A stretch of 62,853 bases of DNA from Candidatus Omnitrophota bacterium. GTDB taxonomy: Bacteria; Omnitrophota; Gorgyraeia; 2-01-FULL-45-10. Under the pieces are notes generated by a model. That model saw nothing but the letters and a program-made list of their open reading frames with translations. It was not told where the DNA came from and ran no database searches. Position 1 is the first letter of the stretch. Each line of letters starts with the position of its first letter. The translations under genes and the position numbers were made by a program. Shown here one piece after another: positions 4,543-42,391 of the stretch. The stretch lies in assembly GCA_043798375.1 (NCBI GenBank), contig JAZDOS010000018.1, positions 1-62,853 of the forward strand, read 5' to 3'.

Positions 4543-6096
4543 TCACTTTGTTGTATCGATACGGGGAAATAGCGGGCCGGCCTTATTGATTTTATGGCCT
4601 TCTTTCAGATTACCCCAGTCTTTGGTTTCGGAGAACCTTACCTTATCGAGGCCTTCTTTCATGCCGAGTTGGGCCCAGACATTCTTCGCCGTTTCGGGCA
4701 TAAACGGATAAATCGATATGGCGACGACCCTGATCGCCTCCAAAAGGCCTGTCATCAATCCAGCGAGTTCGTCGGTCTTCTTTTCTTTCGCCAACGCCCA
4801 CGGTTTCGAATCCTCTATCAGTTTATTCGCGGCGTTGATAACTTCCCATATTTTCGACAGCGCGCTTACAAAATCGAGATTCGGAATCGATTTTTCCAGC
4901 TCCGTCGCAAGAGCAAGGGATTTTTCTTTTATTTTACTGTCAACCGTCAACTGTCTACTGTCAACTAAACTAGGAATTTTTCCCTCGAAATACTTCTCCA
5001 CCATCGACAGCGTCCGGCTTAAAAGATTGCCCAGGTCATTGGCAAGATCGCTGTTATAACGGGTAACGAGCGCTTCTTCGCTGAACGTCCCGTCCATCCC
5101 AAATTGCACCTCGTGCAGGAGAAAATACCGGTAAGGATCGACTCCGTATTTTGTGGCCATTTCAAGCGGATCGACGACGTTTCCCCTCGACTTCGACATC
5201 TTCTCGCCCTTTATCACCCACCAACCATGGGCAAATATGGATTTTGGCGGTTCGATACCGAGCGCATGGCACATTATCGGCCAATAGACCGCGTGATGCC
5301 GAAGAATGTCTTTTCCCATAACGTGATAATCCGCGGGCCATAATTTCTTAAAGGTAGCCATATCGTGCGGATAGCCGGCGCCGGAGACATAATTTATGAG
5401 CGCATCGAACCAGACGTATGTCACATAATCTTTATCGAACGGGATCTCGATCCCCCAGGACATCCTTGATCTTGGCCGCGATATGCAAAGATCCAAAAGT
5501 TCCTCTTTCAAAAATCCCAGGACTTCGTTCTTACGGAAATCGGGCCTGATGAAACCCGGATTTTTGTTTATGTAATCGACGAGCCATTTCTGATATCCGG
5601 AAATCTTGAAAAAATAGTTCGCCTCATCAAGTTTCTCAATAGGCCTTTTGCAGTCCGGACAAATCCCGTCAGGACTCTGTTTCTCTGACCAAAATGTCTC
5701 GCACGGGGTGCAGAACCATCCCTTGTATTCCTTTTTATAGATATGGCCGTCTTTATGCAATTTTGTAAGGATCGATTGTACCGTATTTATGTGCCCAGCG
5801 TCTGTCGTTCGTATAAAATAGTCATAGTTTATACCGAGCTTTTTCCACAGATCCTTAAATACAGGGACTATCTCGTCGACAAAATTCTTTTCCTCGCCCG
5901 GTTTTCCGCCGCGCTCCAAGGCCGCCTTTTCGATCTTTTCTCCGTGCTCGTCGGTTCCGGTCATGAAAAAGACGTCATGGCCGCACTGCCTCATAAACCT
6001 GGATACAACGTCACAGGCAATCTGTGTATAGGAATGGCCTATGTGCGGCTTGGAATTGACATAATAGAGCGGGGTTGTAATATAGAATTTACTCAC
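4543..6096 (-). CDS. metG: Methionyl-tRNA synthetase (short form)
   Basis: PHIGH, TGTDEHG, YVWFDAL, KMSKS. Confidence 0.97.
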   Translation of the reverse strand: MSKFYITTPLYYVNSKPHIGHSYTQIACDVVSRFMRQCGHDVFFMTGTDEHGEKIEKAALERGGKPGEEKNFVDEIVPVFKDLWKKLGINYDYFIRTTDAGHINTVQSILTKLHKDGHIYKKEYKGWFCTPCETFWSEKQSPDGICPDCKRPIEKLDEANYFFKISGYQKWLVDYINKNPGFIRPDFRKNEVLGFLKEELLDLCISRPRSRMSWGIEIPFDKDYVTYVWFDALINYVSGAGYPHDMATFKKLWPADYHVMGKDILRHHAVYWPIMCHALGIEPPKSIFAHGWWVIKGEKMSKSRGNVVDPLEMATKYGVDPYRYFLLHEVQFGMDGTFSEEALVTRYNSDLANDLGNLLSRTLSMVEKYFEGKIPSLVDSRQLTVDSKIKEKSLALATELEKSIPNLDFVSALSKIWEVINAANKLIEDSKPWALAKEKKTDELAGLMTGLLEAIRVVAISIYPFMPETAKNVWAQLGMKEGLDKVRFSETKDWGNLKEGHKINKAGPLFPRIDTTK

Positions 6097-6875
6097 TTGT
6101 AGCTCACTTCAATAAGGCTTCCGTCCTCGAGCTCGACCGTCACCGAACGCTTGATGGCATTGACGCTCACAATTTTACCAGGCCCCTTTTCGGTCTTCAG
6201 CGTCTCACCCTCATGCGGCAATCCCTTCATGAGTTCTTTATAAGTCTTGTATTCGTAGCCGAGGCAGCACATGAGCCTGCCGCAGAGTCCGGATATCTTC
6301 GTGGGATTGAGCGGAAGGTTCTGTTCCTTCGCCATCTTAATCGTGACCGGCTCAAAGTCTTTCAGATATGTCGCGCAGCACAGCGCCCTGCCGCACGGCC
6401 CGAGGCCTCCCAGTATCTTCGCCTCGTCGCGGACGCCGATCTGTTTCAATTCTATGCGCGTCTTGAAAGCATTGGCAAGGTCCTTCACGAGATCCCTGAA
6501 ATCGACCCTGCCCTCGGCGGTAAAGTAGAACATTATCTTGGACCGGTCGAACGAGAATTCCGCGTCTATCAGTTTCATCGCAAGCCGGCGTTCCTGTATC
6601 TTTTTGGAACATGTATCCATCACTTCCCTGATCTTCTTCTTATTCTTATCGATCTGGTGCATGTCCCACGGGTTCGATTTTCGTATGACCTTCTTGAGAG
6701 GCTCTTCTATGTCCGAATCCATTATCGCCGACGTCTCCGACAGCACCTGCCCGTAGTCGAGCCCTCTATCCGCCTCGACTATGACATAATCACCTATTTT
6801 AAACTTCATGCCGCTCGGCGAGAAGTATGTGATCTTGCCTGCTTCCCTTAGCCTGACCTGTATCACTTCGTACAT
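6093..6875 (-). CDS. PSP1/stage 0 sporulation family protein (RicT/YaaT-like)
   Basis: RVDFRDLVKDLA, GPCGRALCC, KISGLCGRLMCCL; typical location after holB. Confidence 0.9.
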   Translation of the reverse strand: MYEVIQVRLREAGKITYFSPSGMKFKIGDYVIVEADRGLDYGQVLSETSAIMDSDIEEPLKKVIRKSNPWDMHQIDKNKKKIREVMDTCSKKIQERRLAMKLIDAEFSFDRSKIMFYFTAEGRVDFRDLVKDLANAFKTRIELKQIGVRDEAKILGGLGPCGRALCCATYLKDFEPVTIKMAKEQNLPLNPTKISGLCGRLMCCLGYEYKTYKELMKGLPHEGETLKTEKGPGKIVSVNAIKRSVTVELEDGSLIEVSYK

Positions 6876-7831
6876 ATGCTTGCCCCCAGGACGCTCATTG
6901 CCAATTTAAGATTGACATTCTGTTCCAAAAAAGACCTTGTTAACATGATCTGTTTTATTATATCGTCGAGAAAACGAAAATCGAGATGTTTAGCCTCTTC
7001 TTTTATAATATCGGATTTATCGGCATTCACCAATAATGATTCGCTGTGCCTTGCGGCGGCCTTCGCTATCAGAATATCCCTGTACCATGTAAGCATCATA
7101 TCAAGATACGATCTCATCGCCGGTCTTGTAAGGCCTTCGAAATCCGAATCGAAAAATGAACCGTCGACAAGCCCCTTGAGGACGCTCGATCTCCTTTCGA
7201 AAAACTTCTCTTCATTGAGCTTTAACGCCAGCGCCGGCGAGCCGTTCGCTATCCGCGACAGAATCCGCGCCCTGTCTGTGTCCAGCTTATGAACTTTCGT
7301 CAAGATCCGGCTGATATCGTCGGCCTTAAGCGGGTAAAATCTTACGGCCTGGGAGCGCGATTCTATCGTCGGAAAGAGGTCGCCGGAGCTCTCGGCTATG
7401 AATATGATGACCGAATCCGACGGCGGCTCCTCCAGTGTCTTCAGAAACGCGTTCTGGGCCTCCCCGGTCAGGCTGGCGGCGCCGTCTATTATATAAATCT
7501 TCTTTCCGGCTTCGTAAGGCTTAAGCCCGATATTTTTTATTACCTCCCTCACCCTGTCGATCCCAAGGCGCGATCCGGTTTTGTCGGGTTTCAATAAAAA
7601 TACGTCGGGATGGTTCGACGCGTCTATCTTCCTGCAGGAGATACATTCATCGCATGGCTTCTCACCCGATCCGGAAGAACAGTTCAGCGCTTTCGCGAAA
7701 TTCACGGCTGTAAGCAACTTGCCCGTTCCGGCCGGGCCGGTAAATATATAGGCGTGCGCGGCCCTATCGCTTTCGAGCGCGCCCTTCAAAAAACTGACCG
7801 CCCTGTCCTGCCCCAGTATGGCTTTATACAC
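6863..7831 (-). CDS. holB: DNA polymerase III delta' subunit
   Basis: HAYIFTGPAGTG, PCDECISC, HPD, AQNAFLKTLEEP, TIESR. Confidence 0.93.
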   Translation of the reverse strand: MYKAILGQDRAVSFLKGALESDRAAHAYIFTGPAGTGKLLTAVNFAKALNCSSGSGEKPCDECISCRKIDASNHPDVFLLKPDKTGSRLGIDRVREVIKNIGLKPYEAGKKIYIIDGAASLTGEAQNAFLKTLEEPPSDSVIIFIAESSGDLFPTIESRSQAVRFYPLKADDISRILTKVHKLDTDRARILSRIANGSPALALKLNEEKFFERRSSVLKGLVDGSFFDSDFEGLTRPAMRSYLDMMLTWYRDILIAKAAARHSESLLVNADKSDIIKEEAKHLDFRFLDDIIKQIMLTRSFLEQNVNLKLAMSVLGASICTK

Positions 7832-34092: not shown

Positions 34093-34620
34093 CTACGGAT
34101 GAAAGCCTATCTTAGGTTTCGGCTTTGCCGGCGGCGGTTCCATAAGCTTCTTTATCGCCTTAAAAACAATCCCGAACTGCTTATCATACTTCTTCTCCAT
34201 GTCCTCGATTTTGTGCTTCAAGCCCGCGTAGGTCAAGCCTACGCGCCTCAATCCTACAAATGCGCGCATGATCTGGATATTGACTAAAATAGCCCTTTCG
34301 CTATTCAAGACGCTGGATAACATAGCAACACCTTGTTCGGTAAATACGTACGGAAAGTACTTAATATTTTGCCCTTGTTTCAAGGTCGCAATTTGCGACC
34401 TTGAATCCAATACTCTGGATTGAAGCGTAATGACTTCTTCTTTCGTCAACTGAAACATAAAGTCCTCGGGAAACCGCCTCATATTACGCTTCACCTGTTC
34501 ATTGAGCCGCTTTGTCGGCACCATGTAAAGTTCGGCAAGATCTGCATCCACCATTACTTTCTTACCCCTAAACTGAAAAATTCTATTTTCTATCTTTTCA
34601 ATCGGCACTAACATTTCCAT
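34093..34620 (-). CDS. ORF6N (KilA-N-like) DNA-binding domain protein
   Basis: RGKKVMVDADLA.LY.V, RFPEDFMFQLT, SQIAT, PYVFTEQGVAMLSSVLNS. Start after the GGGAG RBS. Confidence 0.92.
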   Translation of the reverse strand: MEMLVPIEKIENRIFQFRGKKVMVDADLAELYMVPTKRLNEQVKRNMRRFPEDFMFQLTKEEVITLQSRVLDSRSQIATLKQGQNIKYFPYVFTEQGVAMLSSVLNSERAILVNIQIMRAFVGLRRVGLTYAGLKHKIEDMEKKYDKQFGIVFKAIKKLMEPPPAKPKPKIGFHP

Positions 34621-34744
34621 TAACACTCCCTTCCAGGTAGTCACAATTTGTGACCACCTTAATGTTGTCCTCTTAAGGTGCCAAAATGGCACCTCAAGTT
34701 GCTACTTGCCCCCATATATAAAGACGCTTTTTTCGCCAAAATTA

Positions 34745-36601: not shown

Positions 36602-39600
36602 TCAGGCCGCTATCAACGCCGCGGCTACATTGTTATAATCCGGCCTATCGTACGGCTCAGCCGGCCTGTATGAGAGTATGCCTTTAAGCAGCCTTGCCAC
36701 GTCACCCGTCATAATAGCCTCTATATAATCCGCGGCGGCCACATCATCGGCTAACTTAAAGTGCGTCTTTATATAAAAACTCAGGACCTGATATATCGAT
36801 GAATCTCTGGTTATATCTCTACTGATGCGCCTTGCCAGGAGCATCATCGCATAGGTATCGAGCTGGAACTTCTCGCGATACGAATCTTTATCGCTTCTTG
36901 CGTTCAGCAGGGTCCAGGCATTGGCCCTGATAAACCTGATGCCTGCCCCCTTCAGCCTGTCAAGCTCTGCCTCTTCTAAACTATCCGGAACGAGGGCTAT
37001 CGTCCTATTTTCAACACCCTTCGCTTTGGATAAAATATTTTCAACAAATTGCGCGGGGTTCGAGCCGCTTACCCTGTCAAGATTAAACCTGTCGCCATAC
37101 TTTAACCTGTGCGCCTCTAATTCACCGTTGGCGAAAAACTCCGATGTCAAAAGAAGCGTGTAACGTTCTTCCGGAAACGTGGGAATGTCTCTCCCTGCTT
37201 TCGCGGCAAGCCGTTCCATCGCTTCCAGCGCAACAGGTTTGACTTTTATATAACCGGGCACGTTTATCTGTATGTCCGGAGAAAGCGGAAGATGAGCAAG
37301 AAGCGCGGCCCTGCCTTCAGCCGACGGCATTATGTAGAAACCTATCCTGTCTATCCTGTCAATGACCAAATAACCATTTTCTCCGTCAAGTTTTACAACT
37401 ACGTAATCCGCCGGGTTAATCCCATCATCCTTCCTGACGTAATCTGCCCTGAATTTCACGGCCGCATAATAATCAAACAACACTCTCGTTTTCTCGGGGC
37501 CTTCTCCAATCGTTTTTCCTCCGACGGGTAATCCGAAATATTTCGCGAGCTGTATCCTCATAAAGGCCGGGACGGCGGCATAATCCGCGGAACTCAAAAA
37601 GTTCATGCCCTCCGGTGTAAAGCTCAACATCCGGCACATGCCGGACAGCTCCGTATAAAGACGATCGACTTTCGCCTCGTCTTTCTGGAAAGGCAATAAG
37701 CTGCCCTCTTTCACATACGAGGCTATCGCTTCGCGCAGCTCCTCCGCGGCCTTTTTATACTGTTCTCCCGCGATCAGGCCCGCAAAATCTGTGTTTGCCT
37801 GCTGTGCCTGCGCGTCCTCGGTAGGGGTTTTTGCGGCGGCGGTATCCCTCATGTGGTCCAACGCCCATCTTACGCCGATGAGCACATCGGGACAACCGGC
37901 AACGCCGGGCGTCGTTTCAAGCCGCGCCAGGGCCTCTTCCGTCGCAGGACTATTGATGTAGCCGAGCGATATCGCCGCCAGCCGCCTCAATGAAGAATCG
38001 GTTTTAGAGCCGATGATGCGAAGCAGATTATCCGCGGCCTCATTCATCTTCAGTTTTCCCGCCCAGTAAGCGGCGAACATCAATGCCCTTATTTTCCGGC
38101 CGTCCGCCAGACCGTCAAGATCCTGCGCATCCAGTTCACGGGCAACCACGCCCTTATCGATGTATTTACCCATGATATTTTCACGCGCGATCTCCGTGGC
38201 GTGAATTATCGTGAGAACGCGCAGGTTCTCGTCATTCCTCGCGATCCCGTGTTTAACATCCCTCTCGACGCGCGCGCTTATCTCCCTATCCTCTTCGGCC
38301 GCCGGTTCATCAAGAAGCCGTGAGCGTTCCGTTATTATATCGTTCACAACCCTCTGGTGTATTTCGTATATCGAAGCGCCTCTTCCGATTACAAATTGGT
38401 CGGACAGCCATCTTGCATTCACCAGCGCCGTGTCGGCTATATCCCCCTGTATGTGAGGCTTCAACTCCGCCATACGTTTTCTTATCCTGTCGCGGTTAGC
38501 GTCCGACATAACCCGGAAGATCTCCGGCTCCAGCATCGCGTGGAAGACTTCTTCCTTGGACGAGTAGATGCCGCCGCCGTTGGCGACAGGCCCGTAGAAA
38601 TACAGGATGCCGCCCGCCTCGAACTTGTCCTCGGTCCCTATGGCCGCGAAGTTGTTCGCGCCTTCGGAGATTATCTTTGTTCCCGCTTCCGCCATGCGCC
38701 GAATATCTTCCTCGCCGAATACAACGGTGCCTTTCGCGGCGGGAATGAGTATGGTGCTGCCGAGGAAATACGCCTTCCTTGTATCTTCCATAAATTCAAA
38801 TTCGCCTTTATAATAATCCTTAAGTGCAAATTTCCGCCCTGCCCGCTCTCTTACTTTTATCAGCCGCAGAAGCTGTTTTTTATCCAGCCCTTCCCTGTTA
38901 TATATCGTGCCTTTCGAATCGGCCGCGGCCGTTATTTTAACTTTGGCGAATATGTCGGGATATTTGTCATGCAGATACCTCAGGACGCCTCCTCCGACGT
39001 CGCCGAAGCCGACGATCCCCATCGTGAGATTATTCTCGTCTATCTTAAAACGCTTCATCAGTTCTGTGTTATCCAGCGCGGCCGCGAGCGTCTCCACGAC
39101 AGCTATGCTAGTCGCCATCCATTCCACGTGCGGGAATGTTCCGGTCGTTTCCGGATCGCGGCTTGTGGTGGAAATGATCTGCGTCTCCTGCATACCGAAT
39201 ACCCGGCGCGCCGCGATCTTCTCGTCTTCTATCCAGCCCATCTGCTCATACTCCATGCCTACATCCGGCCCGCCCAGATACAGGTTCATGAGGCAGCCGG
39301 CAAGCATGGATGAAGCGGCCCAGTCCCTGATAAACGATTCCTTATCGGCGTTCCTGTCCGCGAGGAATATGGTCTTGCCGCCGTCAAAATATGTCTCCCA
39401 GAACGGGCTTTTGTAGAACATGGCGTTCGCAAGGCGCACGCCTTCCAATAGCAGCGGATCCTGTGTCTTTTCCGGGTTGCCCATGAATTTTTCATCCATG
39501 CTATCCAGCGTGGATTTGCCGGCGTATTCGCCTACCTGATACCAGCGGCATCCGCCTTTAGCGAATATCATCTTTGGGTTCTTCGTGCGCGAGAATATGG

Positions 39601-42244
39601 TGGTAATAGCGGCTCCGTCCGGTAATGATGTTACCACTATGTAGCGCGGCCTATCAATTCCATCTATGCCGCCCCTGTAACCGGTTAGTATGCTTCCGTC
39701 AAATATGAATGTCGGCGGCAAAGCGCGGACTTTTCCGTCCCTGGCATAATCCGCCCTTCTCTCATCATTAAGGTTCGTCGCGACAAGATAACCGCCGGCC
39801 TTTACGCCTACGAGCAGTTTGTTATAATCAATATCCGGATTGAGCGGCGATAACATTTTTGTCATCTGGGTAACGATCCGCTCGCGCTCCGCCGCGGGCT
39901 GCTTTTGAAAAATCGGCCTGGGCGCAACGCCGTTTACGATTTCAAGCGTTGGCTCACCGGACAAGATCTCTCCGTCAAGAATAAGCTCGATCATGTCCAC
40001 AAGCGCAGGCGCTGTCCTGGCTTCAACACCGTTCGCTCCGTCCCTGGTCGAAGCGGCGATATGCGGAAAGATAACGGCGTTATCACGGTTTGTTTCGATC
40101 AGCCTGTAAAGCTCCGGCGTCATATCCAGGTCACCGTAATATGCCAGCCCTCCGGCTTTCACCCGCGGCTCCAGGAGCTCGGGCCTCGCGTATCCGGACC
40201 TGGATGTATTGATAAGGAGCTCAAGATTGGGGCTTGATATCTCCGCTTCCGTTAATTGAACTTTTGGCATATCCTCCTGTTTGGCCCCAAGATGAATGGT
40301 AACCATATTGGCCCTTTTAAACAGTTCTTCCCGGCTGACGGGCGCAGCGCCTAATTTTTTTGCTTCGGCGCTGTCAGGCGTTAAACTACGGGAATGGACC
40401 AACACGGTAAATGGTATATCGCGGGCATCTGCGATAGCCTTTAATTTCTGCGCCACTGCCCGGCCGATGGCCCCCCATCCGAGTATGCCTATAGTCTTCC
40501 CTCTTAATGCTTCCGCCGAAGACTCAAACGAATCTGTCGCAAGCGGATCGACTATTTCGCGCATCCAATAATCAGTAAGCCTATCCCGTTCTCCTTCAGG
40601 CACGACTGCCCATTTTTTGCTGTTGCGCACGAGTTTCTCATACTCACCGGGACCTGTCTGAAATAAACCTTCGATGTGATTGTCGAACGCGGAGCCCGAA
40701 GAGACCCCGCCCCTTGCCCCTTTTACACCTCTCTTTTTGCACATATATCCTAACAGGAAAGACAATGTCAGGTCGGCCACAGAATTAGCGCTTCCGTGAG
40801 TGCGGCCGACGGATATGCCATGATTGGCCGCCATATCATCTTTTATATTCTCATATCCGACTCCGGCCCGAATAATGGCTTTCAAGCCATTATTTTCCGC
40901 CAGTTCGAAAATCGATGGATCTTTACCGTCAAAAGCGGTGGTCGCCGAACGAACCACGATAGTGTCCGGCTTGTCGTTCCTGATGCGGGCCTTAAGCCAT
41001 TCCGCGTCCTTCCCTTTGCCGTGTTCGGTTATAAACTCAACTCTTCCGCCGAATCTTTCCGAAAGCTTCTCGCGGATCGCGTCAATCGTCTTTGGGTCTT
41101 CCGGGTCATCCGCAAAAAGGATCCTGACTTTCGCTTCCGGCGCCGCGGCTTGCGTTGTTGCGCCTGCAGCGTAATCGCGCGCCGCGAGATTCGTGTCGAG
41201 GTTGGCGATGTAATATTTCTTCCGCTTGAATTCGGCCTTCCTGCCTTTCAGGAGCAGCTCGTTATGCCTTACATCGATTTCATTCTCAGGCCGGCTGTCA
41301 ATAAACCTTAATACGGATAAGCCGAGCATCGCGCCGACTTCGTGAACCAAATAATCCTTTATGCGGCCTTCTACAAATTTCGCCCTCGCGCCGCCTCTTT
41401 TTAAATCGTCGATGGCCTCCCGGTTCAAAAAGAGATGCACGGCGTTATTGCTTGAATGGGTGTGGACAATAACTTTTTGCTTTGCGCCGTTTTTTGTCTC
41501 ATGTTCTACGCGGCTCTCGTTAAGCATGGAGGCAATCTTGCCTGTCAGAGGAACGAGATAAAATTTCCTGTCCTGAAGCGGGGCCATTCCGCCCGGATTC
41601 TCTATATCGAGCTTTAATTCGGAGATTATATCCGCGATCGTCCCTTTATAGTCAAAACGAGCCTCTTCTGCCGTCAGGGTAAGGCCGCCGCGGTGGGCGT
41701 AGTCTAAAATACCATCGACCTTTTCATGTTGAGTATATATCCCGGCGGCCTTTATAGAGCTTGCGGTTTTTGGCTTGGCCTTCCCGTCCGATCCTTCCGG
41801 ATAAACGTCAAGCTGTTGATTAACGGAGGAATACTCGATTATGTAGGTCCTCGCGCCATAGGCCAGGTCCTTACGAACAGCTTTTATCTTCAGGACGCCA
41901 TCTTCTGCAGACGGAATTTCGTGAATAAAGAATTGAGCGCCTCCCAGCTGGTATATTGTCTTTCCCGGCAGGTTTCCGGGCATATCGGCGAATTTCTGAA
42001 GGTTTTCGCGGGTAATTTCTAATCTATGGTCATTTATGTAATTTAAGGCAGCGGCAAACCATAGCTCGATATCGCCCATGTCTTTATTCCCGATATCCTG
42101 AATGTTGCTGAATTTGGATTGCGGCGCGAGCTTATCGGCTATGCCGATATTGAGCGATTGACCGAACGCGAAGTCGGATATGGCGGTATTGAAGATAAAA
42201 CAGACCAGAACGATACTTGAAATTATTTTGTTACACTTTTTCAT
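36602..42244 (-). CDS. 1880-aa predicted secreted protein with a D-2-hydroxyacid (SerA-like) dehydrogenase domain, a Glu/Leu/Phe/Val dehydrogenase domain and a HEAT-like repeat
   Basis: Signal-peptide-like N-terminus; VVRSAT, IRAGVGYENI, GKTIGILGWGAIG, INTSR, PHIAAST; AKGG, GGKT, GPDVG, GFGDVG, DSKGTIYN..GLD, EGANN. Confidence 0.85.
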   Translation of the reverse strand: MKKCNKIISSIVLVCFIFNTAISDFAFGQSLNIGIADKLAPQSKFSNIQDIGNKDMGDIELWFAAALNYINDHRLEITRENLQKFADMPGNLPGKTIYQLGGAQFFIHEIPSAEDGVLKIKAVRKDLAYGARTYIIEYSSVNQQLDVYPEGSDGKAKPKTASSIKAAGIYTQHEKVDGILDYAHRGGLTLTAEEARFDYKGTIADIISELKLDIENPGGMAPLQDRKFYLVPLTGKIASMLNESRVEHETKNGAKQKVIVHTHSSNNAVHLFLNREAIDDLKRGGARAKFVEGRIKDYLVHEVGAMLGLSVLRFIDSRPENEIDVRHNELLLKGRKAEFKRKKYYIANLDTNLAARDYAAGATTQAAAPEAKVRILFADDPEDPKTIDAIREKLSERFGGRVEFITEHGKGKDAEWLKARIRNDKPDTIVVRSATTAFDGKDPSIFELAENNGLKAIIRAGVGYENIKDDMAANHGISVGRTHGSANSVADLTLSFLLGYMCKKRGVKGARGGVSSGSAFDNHIEGLFQTGPGEYEKLVRNSKKWAVVPEGERDRLTDYWMREIVDPLATDSFESSAEALRGKTIGILGWGAIGRAVAQKLKAIADARDIPFTVLVHSRSLTPDSAEAKKLGAAPVSREELFKRANMVTIHLGAKQEDMPKVQLTEAEISSPNLELLINTSRSGYARPELLEPRVKAGGLAYYGDLDMTPELYRLIETNRDNAVIFPHIAASTRDGANGVEARTAPALVDMIELILDGEILSGEPTLEIVNGVAPRPIFQKQPAAERERIVTQMTKMLSPLNPDIDYNKLLVGVKAGGYLVATNLNDERRADYARDGKVRALPPTFIFDGSILTGYRGGIDGIDRPRYIVVTSLPDGAAITTIFSRTKNPKMIFAKGGCRWYQVGEYAGKSTLDSMDEKFMGNPEKTQDPLLLEGVRLANAMFYKSPFWETYFDGGKTIFLADRNADKESFIRDWAASSMLAGCLMNLYLGGPDVGMEYEQMGWIEDEKIAARRVFGMQETQIISTTSRDPETTGTFPHVEWMATSIAVVETLAAALDNTELMKRFKIDENNLTMGIVGFGDVGGGVLRYLHDKYPDIFAKVKITAAADSKGTIYNREGLDKKQLLRLIKVRERAGRKFALKDYYKGEFEFMEDTRKAYFLGSTILIPAAKGTVVFGEEDIRRMAEAGTKIISEGANNFAAIGTEDKFEAGGILYFYGPVANGGGIYSSKEEVFHAMLEPEIFRVMSDANRDRIRKRMAELKPHIQGDIADTALVNARWLSDQFVIGRGASIYEIHQRVVNDIITERSRLLDEPAAEEDREISARVERDVKHGIARNDENLRVLTIIHATEIARENIMGKYIDKGVVARELDAQDLDGLADGRKIRALMFAAYWAGKLKMNEAADNLLRIIGSKTDSSLRRLAAISLGYINSPATEEALARLETTPGVAGCPDVLIGVRWALDHMRDTAAAKTPTEDAQAQQANTDFAGLIAGEQYKKAAEELREAIASYVKEGSLLPFQKDEAKVDRLYTELSGMCRMLSFTPEGMNFLSSADYAAVPAFMRIQLAKYFGLPVGGKTIGEGPEKTRVLFDYYAAVKFRADYVRKDDGINPADYVVVKLDGENGYLVIDRIDRIGFYIMPSAEGRAALLAHLPLSPDIQINVPGYIKVKPVALEAMERLAAKAGRDIPTFPEERYTLLLTSEFFANGELEAHRLKYGDRFNLDRVSGSNPAQFVENILSKAKGVENRTIALVPDSLEEAELDRLKGAGIRFIRANAWTLLNARSDKDSYREKFQLDTYAMMLLARRISRDITRDSSIYQVLSFYIKTHFKLADDVAAADYIEAIMTGDVARLLKGILSYRPAEPYDRPDYNNVAAALIAA

Positions 42245-42296
42245 TTGTTTTTCTTCCTTTCTTTATACTTAATAAATACCTTTAGTTATAAAACAA

Positions 42297-42323
42297 AAAT
42301 GCCTGGCTTTTCGCCAAGCATTT
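42297..42323 (-). terminator. Intrinsic terminator-like hairpin in the leader of the 1880-aa gene
   Basis: AAATGCTTGGC-GAAAA-GCCAGGCATTT followed by TTGTTTT. Confidence 0.55.
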
Positions 42324-42363
42324 ACAAATGCGCTTCATGATAGATAACTACAAAACTTAACTT

Positions 42364-42391
42364 AGTTTACCATTAAAAAATAGTTTGTCAA
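42364..42391 (-). promoter_or_regulatory. sigma70-like promoter upstream of the 1880-aa gene
   Basis: TTGACA-16 bp-TAAACT. Confidence 0.5.

What the first reader, a model, noticed from the sequence alone, without database searches (positions are those of the whole stretch)
36602..42244. Secreted 1880-aa protein carrying two normally cytoplasmic NAD(P)-dependent dehydrogenase domains
Seen: a hydrophobic signal-like N-terminus, then a ~350-aa unknown domain containing a degenerate zincin-like HEVGAMLG. Next is a SerA/D-2-hydroxyacid dehydrogenase module (~aa 372-770) retaining GxGxxG, the NTSR Arg and the PH His. A Glu/Leu/Phe/Val dehydrogenase module follows, retaining the AKGG and GGKT Lys, the GPD Asp and GFGxVG. 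A HEAT-like helix pair and an unknown C-terminal domain close the protein. Established: Omnitrophota are known for very large multidomain proteins linked to a host-associated or predatory lifestyle. Inference: a modular carrier-plus-captured-enzyme effector that could drain or rebalance amino-acid, 2-oxoacid or NAD(H) pools in a host or prey cell. The two domains could be coupled, because GDH recycles the 2-oxoglutarate/NADH relevant to SerA-type reactions.
Basis: partly seen in the sequence, partly recalled or inferred. Interest (0 to 1): 0.72.

Follow-up and report, generated by a model that had tools for sequence, protein, structure and literature searches.

The report
Leader-tagged Omnitrophota carrier with two dehydrogenases
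This intact 1880-residue gene belongs to a rare Omnitrophota-only protein family in which an export-type leader and two conserved end domains of unknown fold bracket interchangeable, normally cytoplasmic metabolic enzymes; here these are a D-2-hydroxyacid dehydrogenase and a divergent glutamate-type dehydrogenase, and it is not yet known where the protein acts.

Summary
ORF 36602-42244 (-) is one open 1880-aa frame with a tripartite Sec-like leader. An N-terminal domain follows, then a D-2-hydroxyacid dehydrogenase module and a divergent Glu/Leu/Phe/Val-type dehydrogenase module with a HEAT-like tail. A ~205-aa C-terminal domain ends the protein. Both enzyme modules keep their catalytic residues, and the genome also has ordinary standalone GDH and SerA genes.

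The carrier-plus-cargo idea is supported across the lineage, not within this genome. The C-terminal domain occurs in 282 protein clusters and always lies at the extreme C-end. Relatives carry different middles: alanine/glutamate dehydrogenases, transketolase, transaldolase, PFK, hexokinase/ROK, PGM, PPDK and GH77. This genome has a single copy.

Both end domains gave AlphaFold models (C-cap confident, N-cap moderate) with no PDB match, so the zincin idea is unsupported.

Evidence for export:
- The leader has a conserved -3/-1 cleavage motif, and there is no other TM segment.
- The protein is Cys-poor, like the genome's leader-bearing class.
- Signal peptidase I and secretins are present.

Export is unproven and host delivery is untested. 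My best guess for the cargo is a redox-neutral pair converting an L-amino acid to a D-2-hydroxyacid plus ammonium.

The parts
36602..42244 (-). Whole gene, 1880 codons plus stop
   Evidence: GC is uniform at 0.51-0.53 across the gene.
42364..42391 (-). Promoter-like site: TTGACA, 16-nt spacer, TG-TAAACT
   Evidence: This is a consensus match only; 7 sites were found in the region against 6.8 expected by shuffling.
42297..42323 (-). 11-bp hairpin followed by a T-run. It lies between the promoter-like site and the ribosome-binding site, so it is either a leader structure or the terminator of asd.
   Evidence: No Rfam family matched.
42253..42258 (-). Ribosome-binding site AGGAAG, 8 nt before the ATG
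   Evidence: Read directly from the sequence.
42161..42244 (-). Leader, residues 1-28. It has an n-region MKKCNK, an h-region IISSIVLVCFIFNTAI and a c-region SDFAFG, with the predicted cleavage before Q29.
   Evidence: AlphaFold models a helix at residues 2-22 followed by disorder at 23-49.
42116..42133 (-). Conserved post-leader motif KLAPQS (family consensus LAxPS; Leu39 nearly invariant), located in a disordered linker
   Evidence: The motif is also present after the leader of P0011, whose N-domain is unrelated.
41159..42097 (-). N-cap, residues 50-362: two beta-rich subdomains carrying HSSNNAVH (263-270), HEVGAMLG (301-308) and RDYAAG (356-361)
   Evidence: Alignments A2 and A3. AlphaFold gives pLDDT 74. 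No PDB fold or sequence match was found.
39920..41122 (-). D-2-hydroxyacid dehydrogenase module, residues about 375-775, with a ~75-residue insert before the NAD(P) domain
   Evidence: The homologous cassette sits in the same position in P0013, at 46% identity.
38450..39712 (-). Divergent ELFV (glutamate-type) amino-acid dehydrogenase module, residues about 845-1265
37805..38257 (-). HEAT-like helical tail of the dehydrogenase cassette, residues about 1330-1480
   Evidence: HEAT_2 matches weakly at E 0.0066. The region is conserved in P0011 and P0012. The free-standing relative P0160 carries precomputed HEAT Pfam calls.
37229..37804 (-). Unassigned region, residues 1481-1672
   Evidence: No Pfam or NCBIfam match.
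36605..37228 (-). C-cap, residues 1673-1880: a four-stranded alpha/beta core plus a helical part, ending in ...VAAALIAA
   Evidence: Alignment A1. AlphaFold gives pLDDT 90 and pTM 0.86. No PDB or BFVD match, best TM-score 0.32. 282 clusters carry it, always at the C-terminus.

Best explanation
The gene encodes one member of an Omnitrophota-restricted, cap-bracketed protein family. A conserved Sec-type leader and an N-terminal cap of about 310 residues start the protein. A C-terminal cap of about 205 residues, always the last domain, ends it. Between the caps, evolution has swapped in cassettes of normally cytoplasmic enzymes.

In this member the cargo is two oxidoreductases that look catalytically competent. 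The first is a D-2-hydroxyacid dehydrogenase. The second is a divergent glutamate-type amino-acid dehydrogenase with a HEAT tail.

The most likely mechanism has three steps:
1. The leader takes the unfolded chain across the inner membrane through Sec, and signal peptidase I cuts after AFG28. This is inferred.
2. The caps act as handling or sorting modules for the envelope or for a later export step. This is inferred from their fixed terminal positions.
3. The two enzymes work as a redox-neutral pair. The amino-acid dehydrogenase oxidises an L-amino acid, probably glutamate, to its 2-oxoacid plus ammonium and makes NAD(P)H. The 2-hydroxyacid dehydrogenase uses that NAD(P)H to reduce the 2-oxoacid to a D-2-hydroxyacid. 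The cofactor therefore cycles inside one polypeptide. This is inferred.

Shown here: the architecture, the family, the cargo swapping and the retention of catalytic residues. Not shown: export, cleavage, substrates and the site of action.
For: Family and architecture:
- The caps are shared while the middles differ.
- The C-cap ends within 1-3 residues of the protein end in nearly all of the 150 listed hits.

Cassette nature of the cargo:
- The N-cap to 2HADH junction is reproduced in P0013.
- The GDH-like plus HEAT unit is reproduced in P0011 and P0012 and stands alone in P0158 and P0160.

Catalytic competence:
- The 2HADH module keeps the Arg, the His and GxGxxG.
- The GDH-like module keeps three Lys, the Asp, GFGDVG and the Ser that binds the glutamate gamma-carboxylate. 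All are conserved across a subfamily only 32-47% identical.

Pairing logic:
- The same 2HADH cassette is paired with an ELFV dehydrogenase in P0001 and with an alanine dehydrogenase in P0013.

Export:
- The n/h/c leader with D-x-A-x-[GSA]|Q is conserved in most complete members.
- The charge distribution follows the positive-inside rule, which puts the bulk of the protein outside.
- There is no further TM segment.
- Signal peptidase I and two secretins are encoded in the genome.
- Cys content is 0.37% in P0001 and 0.51% in 55 family members. The genome's leader-bearing class has 0.67% and its leaderless soluble class 1.18% (Mann-Whitney p 1e-10 between the two classes).
- The housekeeping GDH has 2.0% Cys against 0.5% for the module.

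Not the housekeeping copies:
- Standalone GDH (318 bits against 80 for the module) and SerA (231 against 58) exist elsewhere in the genome.
Against: - NAD(P), ATP and ThDP are not expected outside the cytoplasm.
- Relatives also carry winged-helix-like repeats, a sigma-54-type AAA+ module and cNMP-binding domains, which are typical of proteins that work inside a cell.
- No secretion genes flank the gene here or in relatives. The neighbours are asd and leuBCD here, and metG and tatD in relatives.
- No signal-peptide predictor could be run.
- The acid partner of the 2HADH catalytic His is ambiguous and is not conserved in P0013.
- Only 2 of the 3 proteins carrying 2HADH also carry an amino-acid dehydrogenase.
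- Substrates were not tested.
Confidence: 0.5

Rival explanations
1. The protein is a cytoplasmic or inner-face membrane-tethered metabolic scaffold. The hydrophobic N-terminus is an uncleaved anchor or an assembly helix. The enzymes work in the bacterium's own cytoplasm, and the caps organise them on a membrane or a larger assembly.
For: - The cargo across the family needs cytoplasmic cofactors and includes wHTH-like, AAA+ and cNMP-binding modules.
- The gene lies next to amino-acid biosynthesis genes on the same strand and, in relatives, inside a housekeeping cluster.
- A 2026 preprint reads about half of the Omnitrophota long proteins as inner-membrane-anchored with cytoplasmic domains.
Against: - The N-flank is positive (+3) and the C-flank is acidic, which predicts the bulk of the protein outside.
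- Small residues at -3 and -1 are conserved across members only 25-35% identical, which is hard to explain for a mere anchor.
- The protein is as Cys-poor as the genome's leader-bearing class.
- Housekeeping copies of the same enzymes already exist.
Confidence: 0.3
2. The protein is an effector delivered into a host or prey cell, where host NAD(P) and amino acids let the enzymes rewire nitrogen, 2-oxoacid and redox pools.
For: - It shares all the export evidence listed for the best explanation.
- It would explain why the cargo is cytoplasm-type.
- The genome is small, 1.46 Mb, and published work infers host dependence and giant surface proteins in Omnitrophota.
Against: - No injection apparatus is linked to the gene.
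- No host is known.
- The cargo cassettes are lineage-internal rather than host-derived.
- Nothing shows passage across an outer membrane or into a second cell.
Confidence: 0.15
3. The reading frame is an assembly chimera or a decaying fusion, or the enzyme modules are dead binding domains.
For: - The 2HADH to GDH-like junction (residues about 775-845) was not seen in any other assembly.
- Read mapping could not be run.
- PF02812 scores only 13 bits.
Against: - The frame is open for 5.6 kb with uniform GC.
- The N-cap to 2HADH and GDH-like to HEAT junctions recur in independent assemblies.
- Catalytic residues are conserved through a divergent subfamily.
Confidence: 0.05

Closest known systems
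Omnitrophota giant 'multi-enzyme metabolic cluster' proteins (West-Roberts et al. 2023, bioRxiv 10.1101/2023.11.21.568195; 2026 preprint 10.64898/2026.06.07.730766)
   Same: - Same phylum.
- Leader-bearing or membrane-associated long proteins tiled with sugar-metabolism and other cytoplasm-type Pfam domains such as ROK, PGM and HEAT.
- The same genome holds further such proteins of up to 7380 aa.
   Different: - This protein is ten to eighty times shorter and has a single hydrophobic segment.
- It belongs to a defined family with two conserved terminal caps, which I did not find in term searches of those texts.
- No PilZ or type II secretion genes lie next to it.
Modular multi-effector and polymorphic toxin architectures (MARTX-type; conserved ends with exchangeable internal effector domains)
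   Same: Conserved terminal modules bracket an exchangeable middle, and the repertoire differs between strains or species.
   Different: - There is no sequence or fold relation.
- No repeat regions or cysteine-protease processing domain were detected.
- The cargo is housekeeping-type metabolic enzymes, not toxins.
- Secretion has not been shown.
C-terminal sorting domains of dedicated export systems (for example the type IX secretion CTD)
   Same: A conserved domain is locked to the extreme C-terminus of otherwise unrelated, Sec-leader-bearing cargo proteins.
   Different: - The C-cap is a ~205-residue alpha/beta plus helical fold, not an 80-100-residue beta-sandwich.
- No cognate machinery has been identified.
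First two steps of the hydroxyglutarate pathway of glutamate fermentation: NAD-GDH plus (R)-2-hydroxyglutarate dehydrogenase HgdH, a D-2-hydroxyacid dehydrogenase family enzyme (from my own knowledge)
   Same: Both pair an ELFV-type amino-acid dehydrogenase with a D-2-hydroxyacid dehydrogenase, and the net reaction is redox-neutral.
   Different: - Here the two are fused in one polypeptide behind a leader.
- Substrates are unknown.
- The downstream enzymes (CoA-transferase, dehydratase) were not looked for.

Membership tests
D-isomer-specific 2-hydroxyacid dehydrogenases (PF00389/PF02826) | Pfam match above the gathering score for both the catalytic and the NAD-binding domains | tested here: met
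   34.5 bits against a cut-off of 24.6, and 60.6 bits against a cut-off of 25.1.
D-isomer-specific 2-hydroxyacid dehydrogenases (PF00389/PF02826) | Catalytic Arg-Glu-His triad and a GxGxxG dinucleotide fold | tested here: inconclusive
   Arg682 (NTSR), His728 (FPHI) and GWGAIG align to PDB PGDHs. The Glu position is offset by one residue, and the closest homologue P0013 has Lys there.
Phosphoglycerate dehydrogenase SerA (TIGR01327) | Equivalog score of at least 454 bits | tested here: not met
   The module scores 61.8 bits. A separate 530-aa SerA-type ORF exists on another contig.
Glu/Leu/Phe/Val dehydrogenases (PF00208/PF02812) | Pfam match for the NAD(P)-binding domain | tested here: met
   77.4 bits against a cut-off of 23.4.
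Glu/Leu/Phe/Val dehydrogenases (PF00208/PF02812) | Pfam match for the N-terminal substrate and dimerisation domain | tested here: not met
   PF02812 scores 13.1 bits against a cut-off of 25.3. Homology is visible only in a guided alignment.
Glu/Leu/Phe/Val dehydrogenases (PF00208/PF02812) | Catalytic Lys and Asp, plus the substrate-binding Lys pair | tested here: met
   K896, K945, K957 and D993 align to the KGG, K, GGGKGG and PD motifs of two canonical GDHs. They are conserved in six subfamily members.
Sec (type I) signal peptide | Positive n-region, hydrophobic h-region, and small residues at -3 and -1 | tested here: met
   By hand: MKKCNK / IISSIVLVCFIFNTAI / SDF-A-F-G|Q. The same layout is seen in most of 55 members. 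No predictor was run and no cleavage was shown.
Zincin metalloproteases | HEXXH motif | tested here: not met
   The motif is HEVGA, with no second His. Only H301, E302, G304 and G308 are conserved.
Zincin metalloproteases | Zincin fold | tested here: not met
   Foldseek against the PDB found no match (best E 0.049, TM-score 0.15 or lower), using a pLDDT-74 model. A profile search of PDB sequences was empty.
Omnitrophota cap-bracketed carrier family (provisional; earlier scan note e1-1322334) | Conserved leader plus N-cap (HSSNNA, HEIG, RDYAAG) at the start, and the C-cap as the last domain | tested here: met
   The N-cap is 25-35% identical and the C-cap 24-66% identical to relatives.
HEAT repeat proteins | Pfam HEAT match above threshold | tested here: not met
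   HEAT_2 scores 17.1 bits against a cut-off of 27.7. The homologue P0160 has precomputed HEAT calls, so the region is HEAT-like but not certified.
Known anti-phage defence proteins (PADLOC) | Any model match | tested here: not met
   0 families at E <= 0.01.

The most novel reading that the evidence does not exclude
Omnitrophota have a dedicated, lineage-specific route marked by a conserved leader, a post-leader LAxPS motif and novel-fold N- and C-caps. This route moves intact central-metabolism enzymes out of the cytoplasm, to the cell surface or into an attached host. There, self-contained cofactor-recycling pairs, such as the amino-acid dehydrogenase plus 2-hydroxyacid dehydrogenase here, process host metabolites.
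Probability: 0.2. Interest if true: 0.85.

Novelty: new variant of a known kind. Interest (0 to 1): 0.6.

Why it matters
Omnitrophota are uncultured, ultra-small bacteria thought to depend on hosts, and the role of their large proteins is an open question. This gene is a tractable 200-kDa representative of that phenomenon. It has two enzyme modules that can be assayed, two end domains with no detectable known fold (the C-cap model is confident), and a clear yes/no question about export. If export of cofactor-dependent metabolic enzymes were confirmed, it would be an unusual form of extracellular or trans-cellular metabolism. If the protein stays inside, the caps would define a new way of tethering metabolic enzymes. 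Either result would inform how the much larger multi-enzyme proteins of this phylum should be read.

Tried and rejected
- **Zincin reading of HEVGAMLG.** There is no HEXXH, no PDB fold hit for the N-cap model and no PDB sequence hit for its profile. The sister protein P0011 has a true HELFH motif, but profile comparison aligned only the leader and LAxPS region. No link was found.
- **Fold assignment of the C-cap.** The best PDB and BFVD matches have TM-scores of 0.32 or lower, to generic alpha/beta layers of PLP enzymes. The PDB sequence profile search was empty.
- **Distant homology of the P0011 and P0013 C-termini to the C-cap.** hhalign gave a probability of 0.1%, so I rejected this.
- **Paralogues in the same genome sharing the caps.** None were found.
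- **Conserved neighbourhood.** The asd and leu neighbours are not conserved. Five relatives share a metG to tatD position instead, and in this genome metG lies 30 kb away.
- **Cargo as the organism's only enzyme copy.** This would have forced a cytoplasmic role. It is rejected for GDH, SerA and, in a relative, transketolase.
- **Rfam match for the 5' leader hairpin.** None was found.
- **PADLOC.** No match.
- **The search for related loci with the C-cap alignment.** The single-sequence scan returned two Candidatus Omnitrophota MAG records.
Full report

The minus strand carries one uninterrupted 1880-codon frame from 42244 to 36602. GC is even at 0.51-0.53 across the gene and matches its surroundings.

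Pfam places three domains above their gathering scores:
- 2-Hacid_dh at residues 392-740.
- 2-Hacid_dh_C at residues 575-730.
- ELFV_dehydrog at residues 1043-1235.

A HEAT_2 match at 1391-1442 is below threshold. NCBIfam gives only weak sub-threshold matches to PGDH, glyoxylate reductase and GDH equivalogs. The modules therefore belong to these superfamilies but are not orthologues of the named enzymes.

A Kyte-Doolittle scan finds a single TM-like segment, residues 7-25. Upstream lie a promoter-like site, a hairpin with a T-run, and a good AGGAAG ribosome-binding site 8 nt before the ATG.

**2. Catalytic residues**

*2-hydroxyacid dehydrogenase module.* Alignment to PDB phosphoglycerate dehydrogenases puts NTSR682 on the catalytic Arg, FPH728 on the catalytic His and GWGAIG on the dinucleotide loop. 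The Glu partner is offset by one residue. In the nearest homologue P0013 that position is Lys, so this residue is uncertain. The end of beta-2 reads VHSRS instead of carrying an acidic residue. That hints at NADP(H) use, but this is inference only.

*ELFV module.* A MAFFT alignment with the genome's own GDH and with the canonical GDH cargo of P0006 aligns the key motifs:
- FAK896GG aligns with P(A/Y)KGG.
- YK945S aligns with the second substrate Lys.
- DGGK957T aligns with GGGKGG.
- GGPD993 aligns with the catalytic Asp.
- GFGDVG aligns with GxGNVG.
- NGGGIYSS aligns with NAGGVxxS.

The same residues are kept in P0011, P0012, P0158, P0159 and P0160, which are only 32-47% identical. That pattern indicates selection for catalysis. 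Retention of the first Lys and the late Ser, which bind the gamma-carboxylate of glutamate in characterised GDHs (my own knowledge), favours a glutamate-like substrate.

The genome also encodes a normal GDH (318 bits against 80 for the module) and a normal 530-aa SerA-type enzyme (231 against 58 bits). The cargo modules are therefore additional, divergent copies.

**3. The protein is a member of a cap-bracketed family**

A word-indexed search of 5.8 billion proteins returned nine large proteins of 1098-3051 aa, each matching only about 11% of the query. BLAST shows that the shared parts are the first ~370 and the last ~205 residues, and that the middles differ.

Neither end has a second copy in this genome.

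In 301 sampled genomes of the phylum, the C-terminal domain occurs in 21. All 21 are in the same class. Each has 1-5 copies, and the domain always sits at the end of ORFs of several hundred to about 3800 codons.

An exhaustive profile search of 1.84 billion cluster representatives finds 282 clusters. In the 150 listed, the match runs to within a few residues of the protein's end, and lengths reach 5448 aa. Named relatives are all Candidatus Omnitrophota or Omnitrophica MAGs.

**4. What the middles carry**

Pfam scans of 55 members list these domains:
- Amino-acid dehydrogenases: alanine dehydrogenase, GDH.
- 2-hydroxyacid dehydrogenase.
- Pentose-phosphate enzymes: transaldolase, transketolase.
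- Glycolytic and sugar kinases: PFK, hexokinase, ROK kinase, GHMP kinase.
- Glycogen and sugar handling: phosphoglucomutase, 4-alpha-glucanotransferase (GH77), aldose epimerase, glucosamine-6-P isomerase/6PGL.
- Others: pyruvate phosphate dikinase, ARMT1-type phosphatase, PIG-L, adenosine deaminase.
- Regulatory modules: a sigma-54-type AAA+ module and cNMP-binding domains.

BLAST with module queries finds alanine dehydrogenase in at least eight clusters carrying the C-cap. Many members also carry a repeated ~70-residue unit, GKSPEDA..KVIALS...TARRDL, that looks like a winged helix. P0001 lacks it.

**5. The cargo is built from reusable cassettes**

Searching with the middle region alone found three proteins:
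- P0013 has the same N-cap followed at the same junction by a homologous 2-hydroxyacid dehydrogenase (46% identical, with the same ~75-residue insert). It continues into other domains, including an alanine dehydrogenase, and has a different C-terminus.
- P0011 and P0012 have a different N-domain (with a true HELFH motif) and a glycogen-synthase part. These are followed by the same GDH-like plus HEAT cassette (45-52% identical) and yet another C-terminus.

The GDH-like unit also exists free-standing. P0158 is 458 aa, and P0160 is 736 aa with HEAT repeats.

This genome encodes a P0011-type relative with a PFK module (C44, 1979 aa). It also encodes a 3398-aa leader-bearing protein with nucleotidyltransferase and PGM modules. 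So cargo cassettes are shuffled among several leader-bearing families in this lineage.

These independent assemblies also confirm two of the three internal junctions of P0001. Only the 2HADH to GDH-like junction is unique.

**6. The caps**

The C-cap models with high confidence (pLDDT 90, pTM 0.86). It has four parallel beta-alpha units followed by a helical part, and the conserved terminal helix packs into the fold.

The N-cap models at pLDDT 74. It has an N-terminal helix (2-22), a disordered linker (23-49) and two beta-rich subdomains.

Neither gives a credible match in the PDB, and the C-cap gives none in BFVD either. Profile searches of PDB sequences are also empty. The zincin suggestion therefore has no support.

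Conserved N-cap positions include H263, S265, H301, E302, G304, R356 and D357. An autoprocessing role at the RDYAAG boundary is conceivable but untested.

**7. Export or not?**

For export:
- The leader has 2-3 basic residues, a ~15-residue hydrophobic core and a conserved D-x-A-x-[G/S/A] followed by Q. This holds in most of the 55 members, although they are only 20-35% identical overall. It fits the -3/-1 rule.
- With the acidic C-flank, the positive-inside rule places the body of the protein outside.
- A nearly invariant Leu in an LAxPS motif follows 10-15 residues later. P0011, with its unrelated N-domain, also has it, which suggests a sorting or processing element.
- The genome has signal peptidase I and two secretins.
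- In a crude gene set of this genome, leader-bearing proteins without other TM segments have 0.67% Cys, against 1.18% for leaderless soluble proteins (p 1e-10). P0001 has 0.37% and the family 0.51%. The housekeeping GDH has 2.0%.

Against export:
- Every cargo type needs cytoplasmic cofactors.
- DNA-binding-like, AAA+ and cNMP modules occur in relatives.
- No export machinery is adjacent. Here the neighbours are leuC-leuD-leuB-asd upstream and thpR, cinA and recA downstream. In five relatives the gene sits between metG and a tatD-radical SAM gene.

I put export at roughly 0.55-0.65, cytoplasmic tethering at about 0.3, and delivery into another cell at about 0.15-0.2 as a subset of export.

**8. 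Likely chemistry**

An amino-acid dehydrogenase and a D-2-hydroxyacid dehydrogenase on one chain can run a closed cofactor loop:
- L-amino acid + H2O + NAD(P)+ gives 2-oxoacid + NH4+ + NAD(P)H.
- 2-oxoacid + NAD(P)H gives D-2-hydroxyacid + NAD(P)+.

GDH plus the 2-hydroxyacid dehydrogenase family enzyme HgdH do exactly this at the start of the hydroxyglutarate pathway (my own knowledge). The same 2HADH cassette is paired with a different amino-acid dehydrogenase, AlaDH, in P0013, which gives the idea some comparative support. A third 2HADH-bearing member shows no such partner. This step is inference. I give it about 0.3.

**9. Comparison with what is known**

- West-Roberts et al. (2023 preprint) and a 2026 preprint describe Omnitrophota giant proteins. 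These include a 'multi-enzyme metabolic cluster' class rich in sugar-metabolism domains and almost always predicted to have a signal peptide or TM helices.
- Seymour et al. 2023 link giant ORFs to host dependence.
- P0001 is a small, well-delimited relative of that phenomenon.
- Term searches of those texts turned up no description of a family with two conserved novel-fold caps and swapped cargo.
I treat it as a lead, not as independent support. I re-derived the family, the cargo swapping and the leader here.

**10. Verdict**

The protein is a new variant of a known kind, namely Omnitrophota leader-bearing multi-enzyme proteins. It is of real interest because it is small enough to test.

Noticed in passing
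window 42297-42391 (-): The 280-nt gap between asd and the gene holds a promoter-like site (10 of 12 matches, extended TG). An 11-bp hairpin with a T-run follows, and only then the RBS and ATG. The hairpin could be an attenuator-type leader or simply the asd terminator. No Rfam family matched.
   Followed up: partly
L076 (G000:C39:13780-21765): A 2662-aa leader-bearing ORF elsewhere in the same genome contains an intein splicing domain (PF14890, E 3e-22, residues 1028-1302).
   Followed up: no
L075 (G000:C44:33163-39099) and L077 (G000:C44:22445-32638): Two more leader-bearing large proteins lie on one contig of this genome and carry cytoplasm-type sugar enzymes. One is 1979 aa with a PFK module, is 40% identical to the HELFH-motif N-part of P0011 and has SLATPK after its leader. 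The other is 3398 aa with nucleotidyltransferase plus PGM modules. Neither shares the caps of P0001.
   Followed up: partly
G000 contigs C39, C45, C6 and window 42161-42244: Several of the genome's largest ORFs (2662, 7203, 1471 and 1880 aa) start with a similar leader ending in ...F(L/I)xN....D(I/L/F)(A/V)(W/F)(A/G). This hints at a leader class used by big proteins. All of the largest leader-bearing ORFs are Cys-poor (0.18-0.71%).
   Followed up: partly
window 4543-7831 (-); L055, L056, L059, L062, L066: In five related genomes the family gene sits between metG and a tatD-radical SAM fusion gene, inside the tmk-holB-PSP1-metG cluster. In this genome holB-PSP1-metG lie at 4543-7831 without it. 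No TatD homologue was found at E <= 1e-10, so the family gene has changed position.
   Followed up: partly
P0004-P0010, P0013 (relatives): A repeated ~70-residue unit, GKSPEDA.KVIALS...(F/Y)..Y...TARRDL..L...G.L, looks like a winged helix and gives weak HTH Pfam hits. It occurs once to several times in many family members but not in P0001. Some members (P0004, P0009) also hold a second internal copy of the N-cap motifs.
   Followed up: no
window 34093-34692 (-): An ORF6N-domain gene (E 1e-32), usually phage- or antirepressor-associated, sits between recA and cinA, just downstream of the gene studied.
   Followed up: no
P0159 (relative of the GDH-like module): One of the closest free-standing relatives of the GDH-like cassette (32% identity) is labelled as coming from a Candidatus Altiarchaeales MAG. 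This could reflect transfer between groundwater lineages or a binning error.
   Followed up: no
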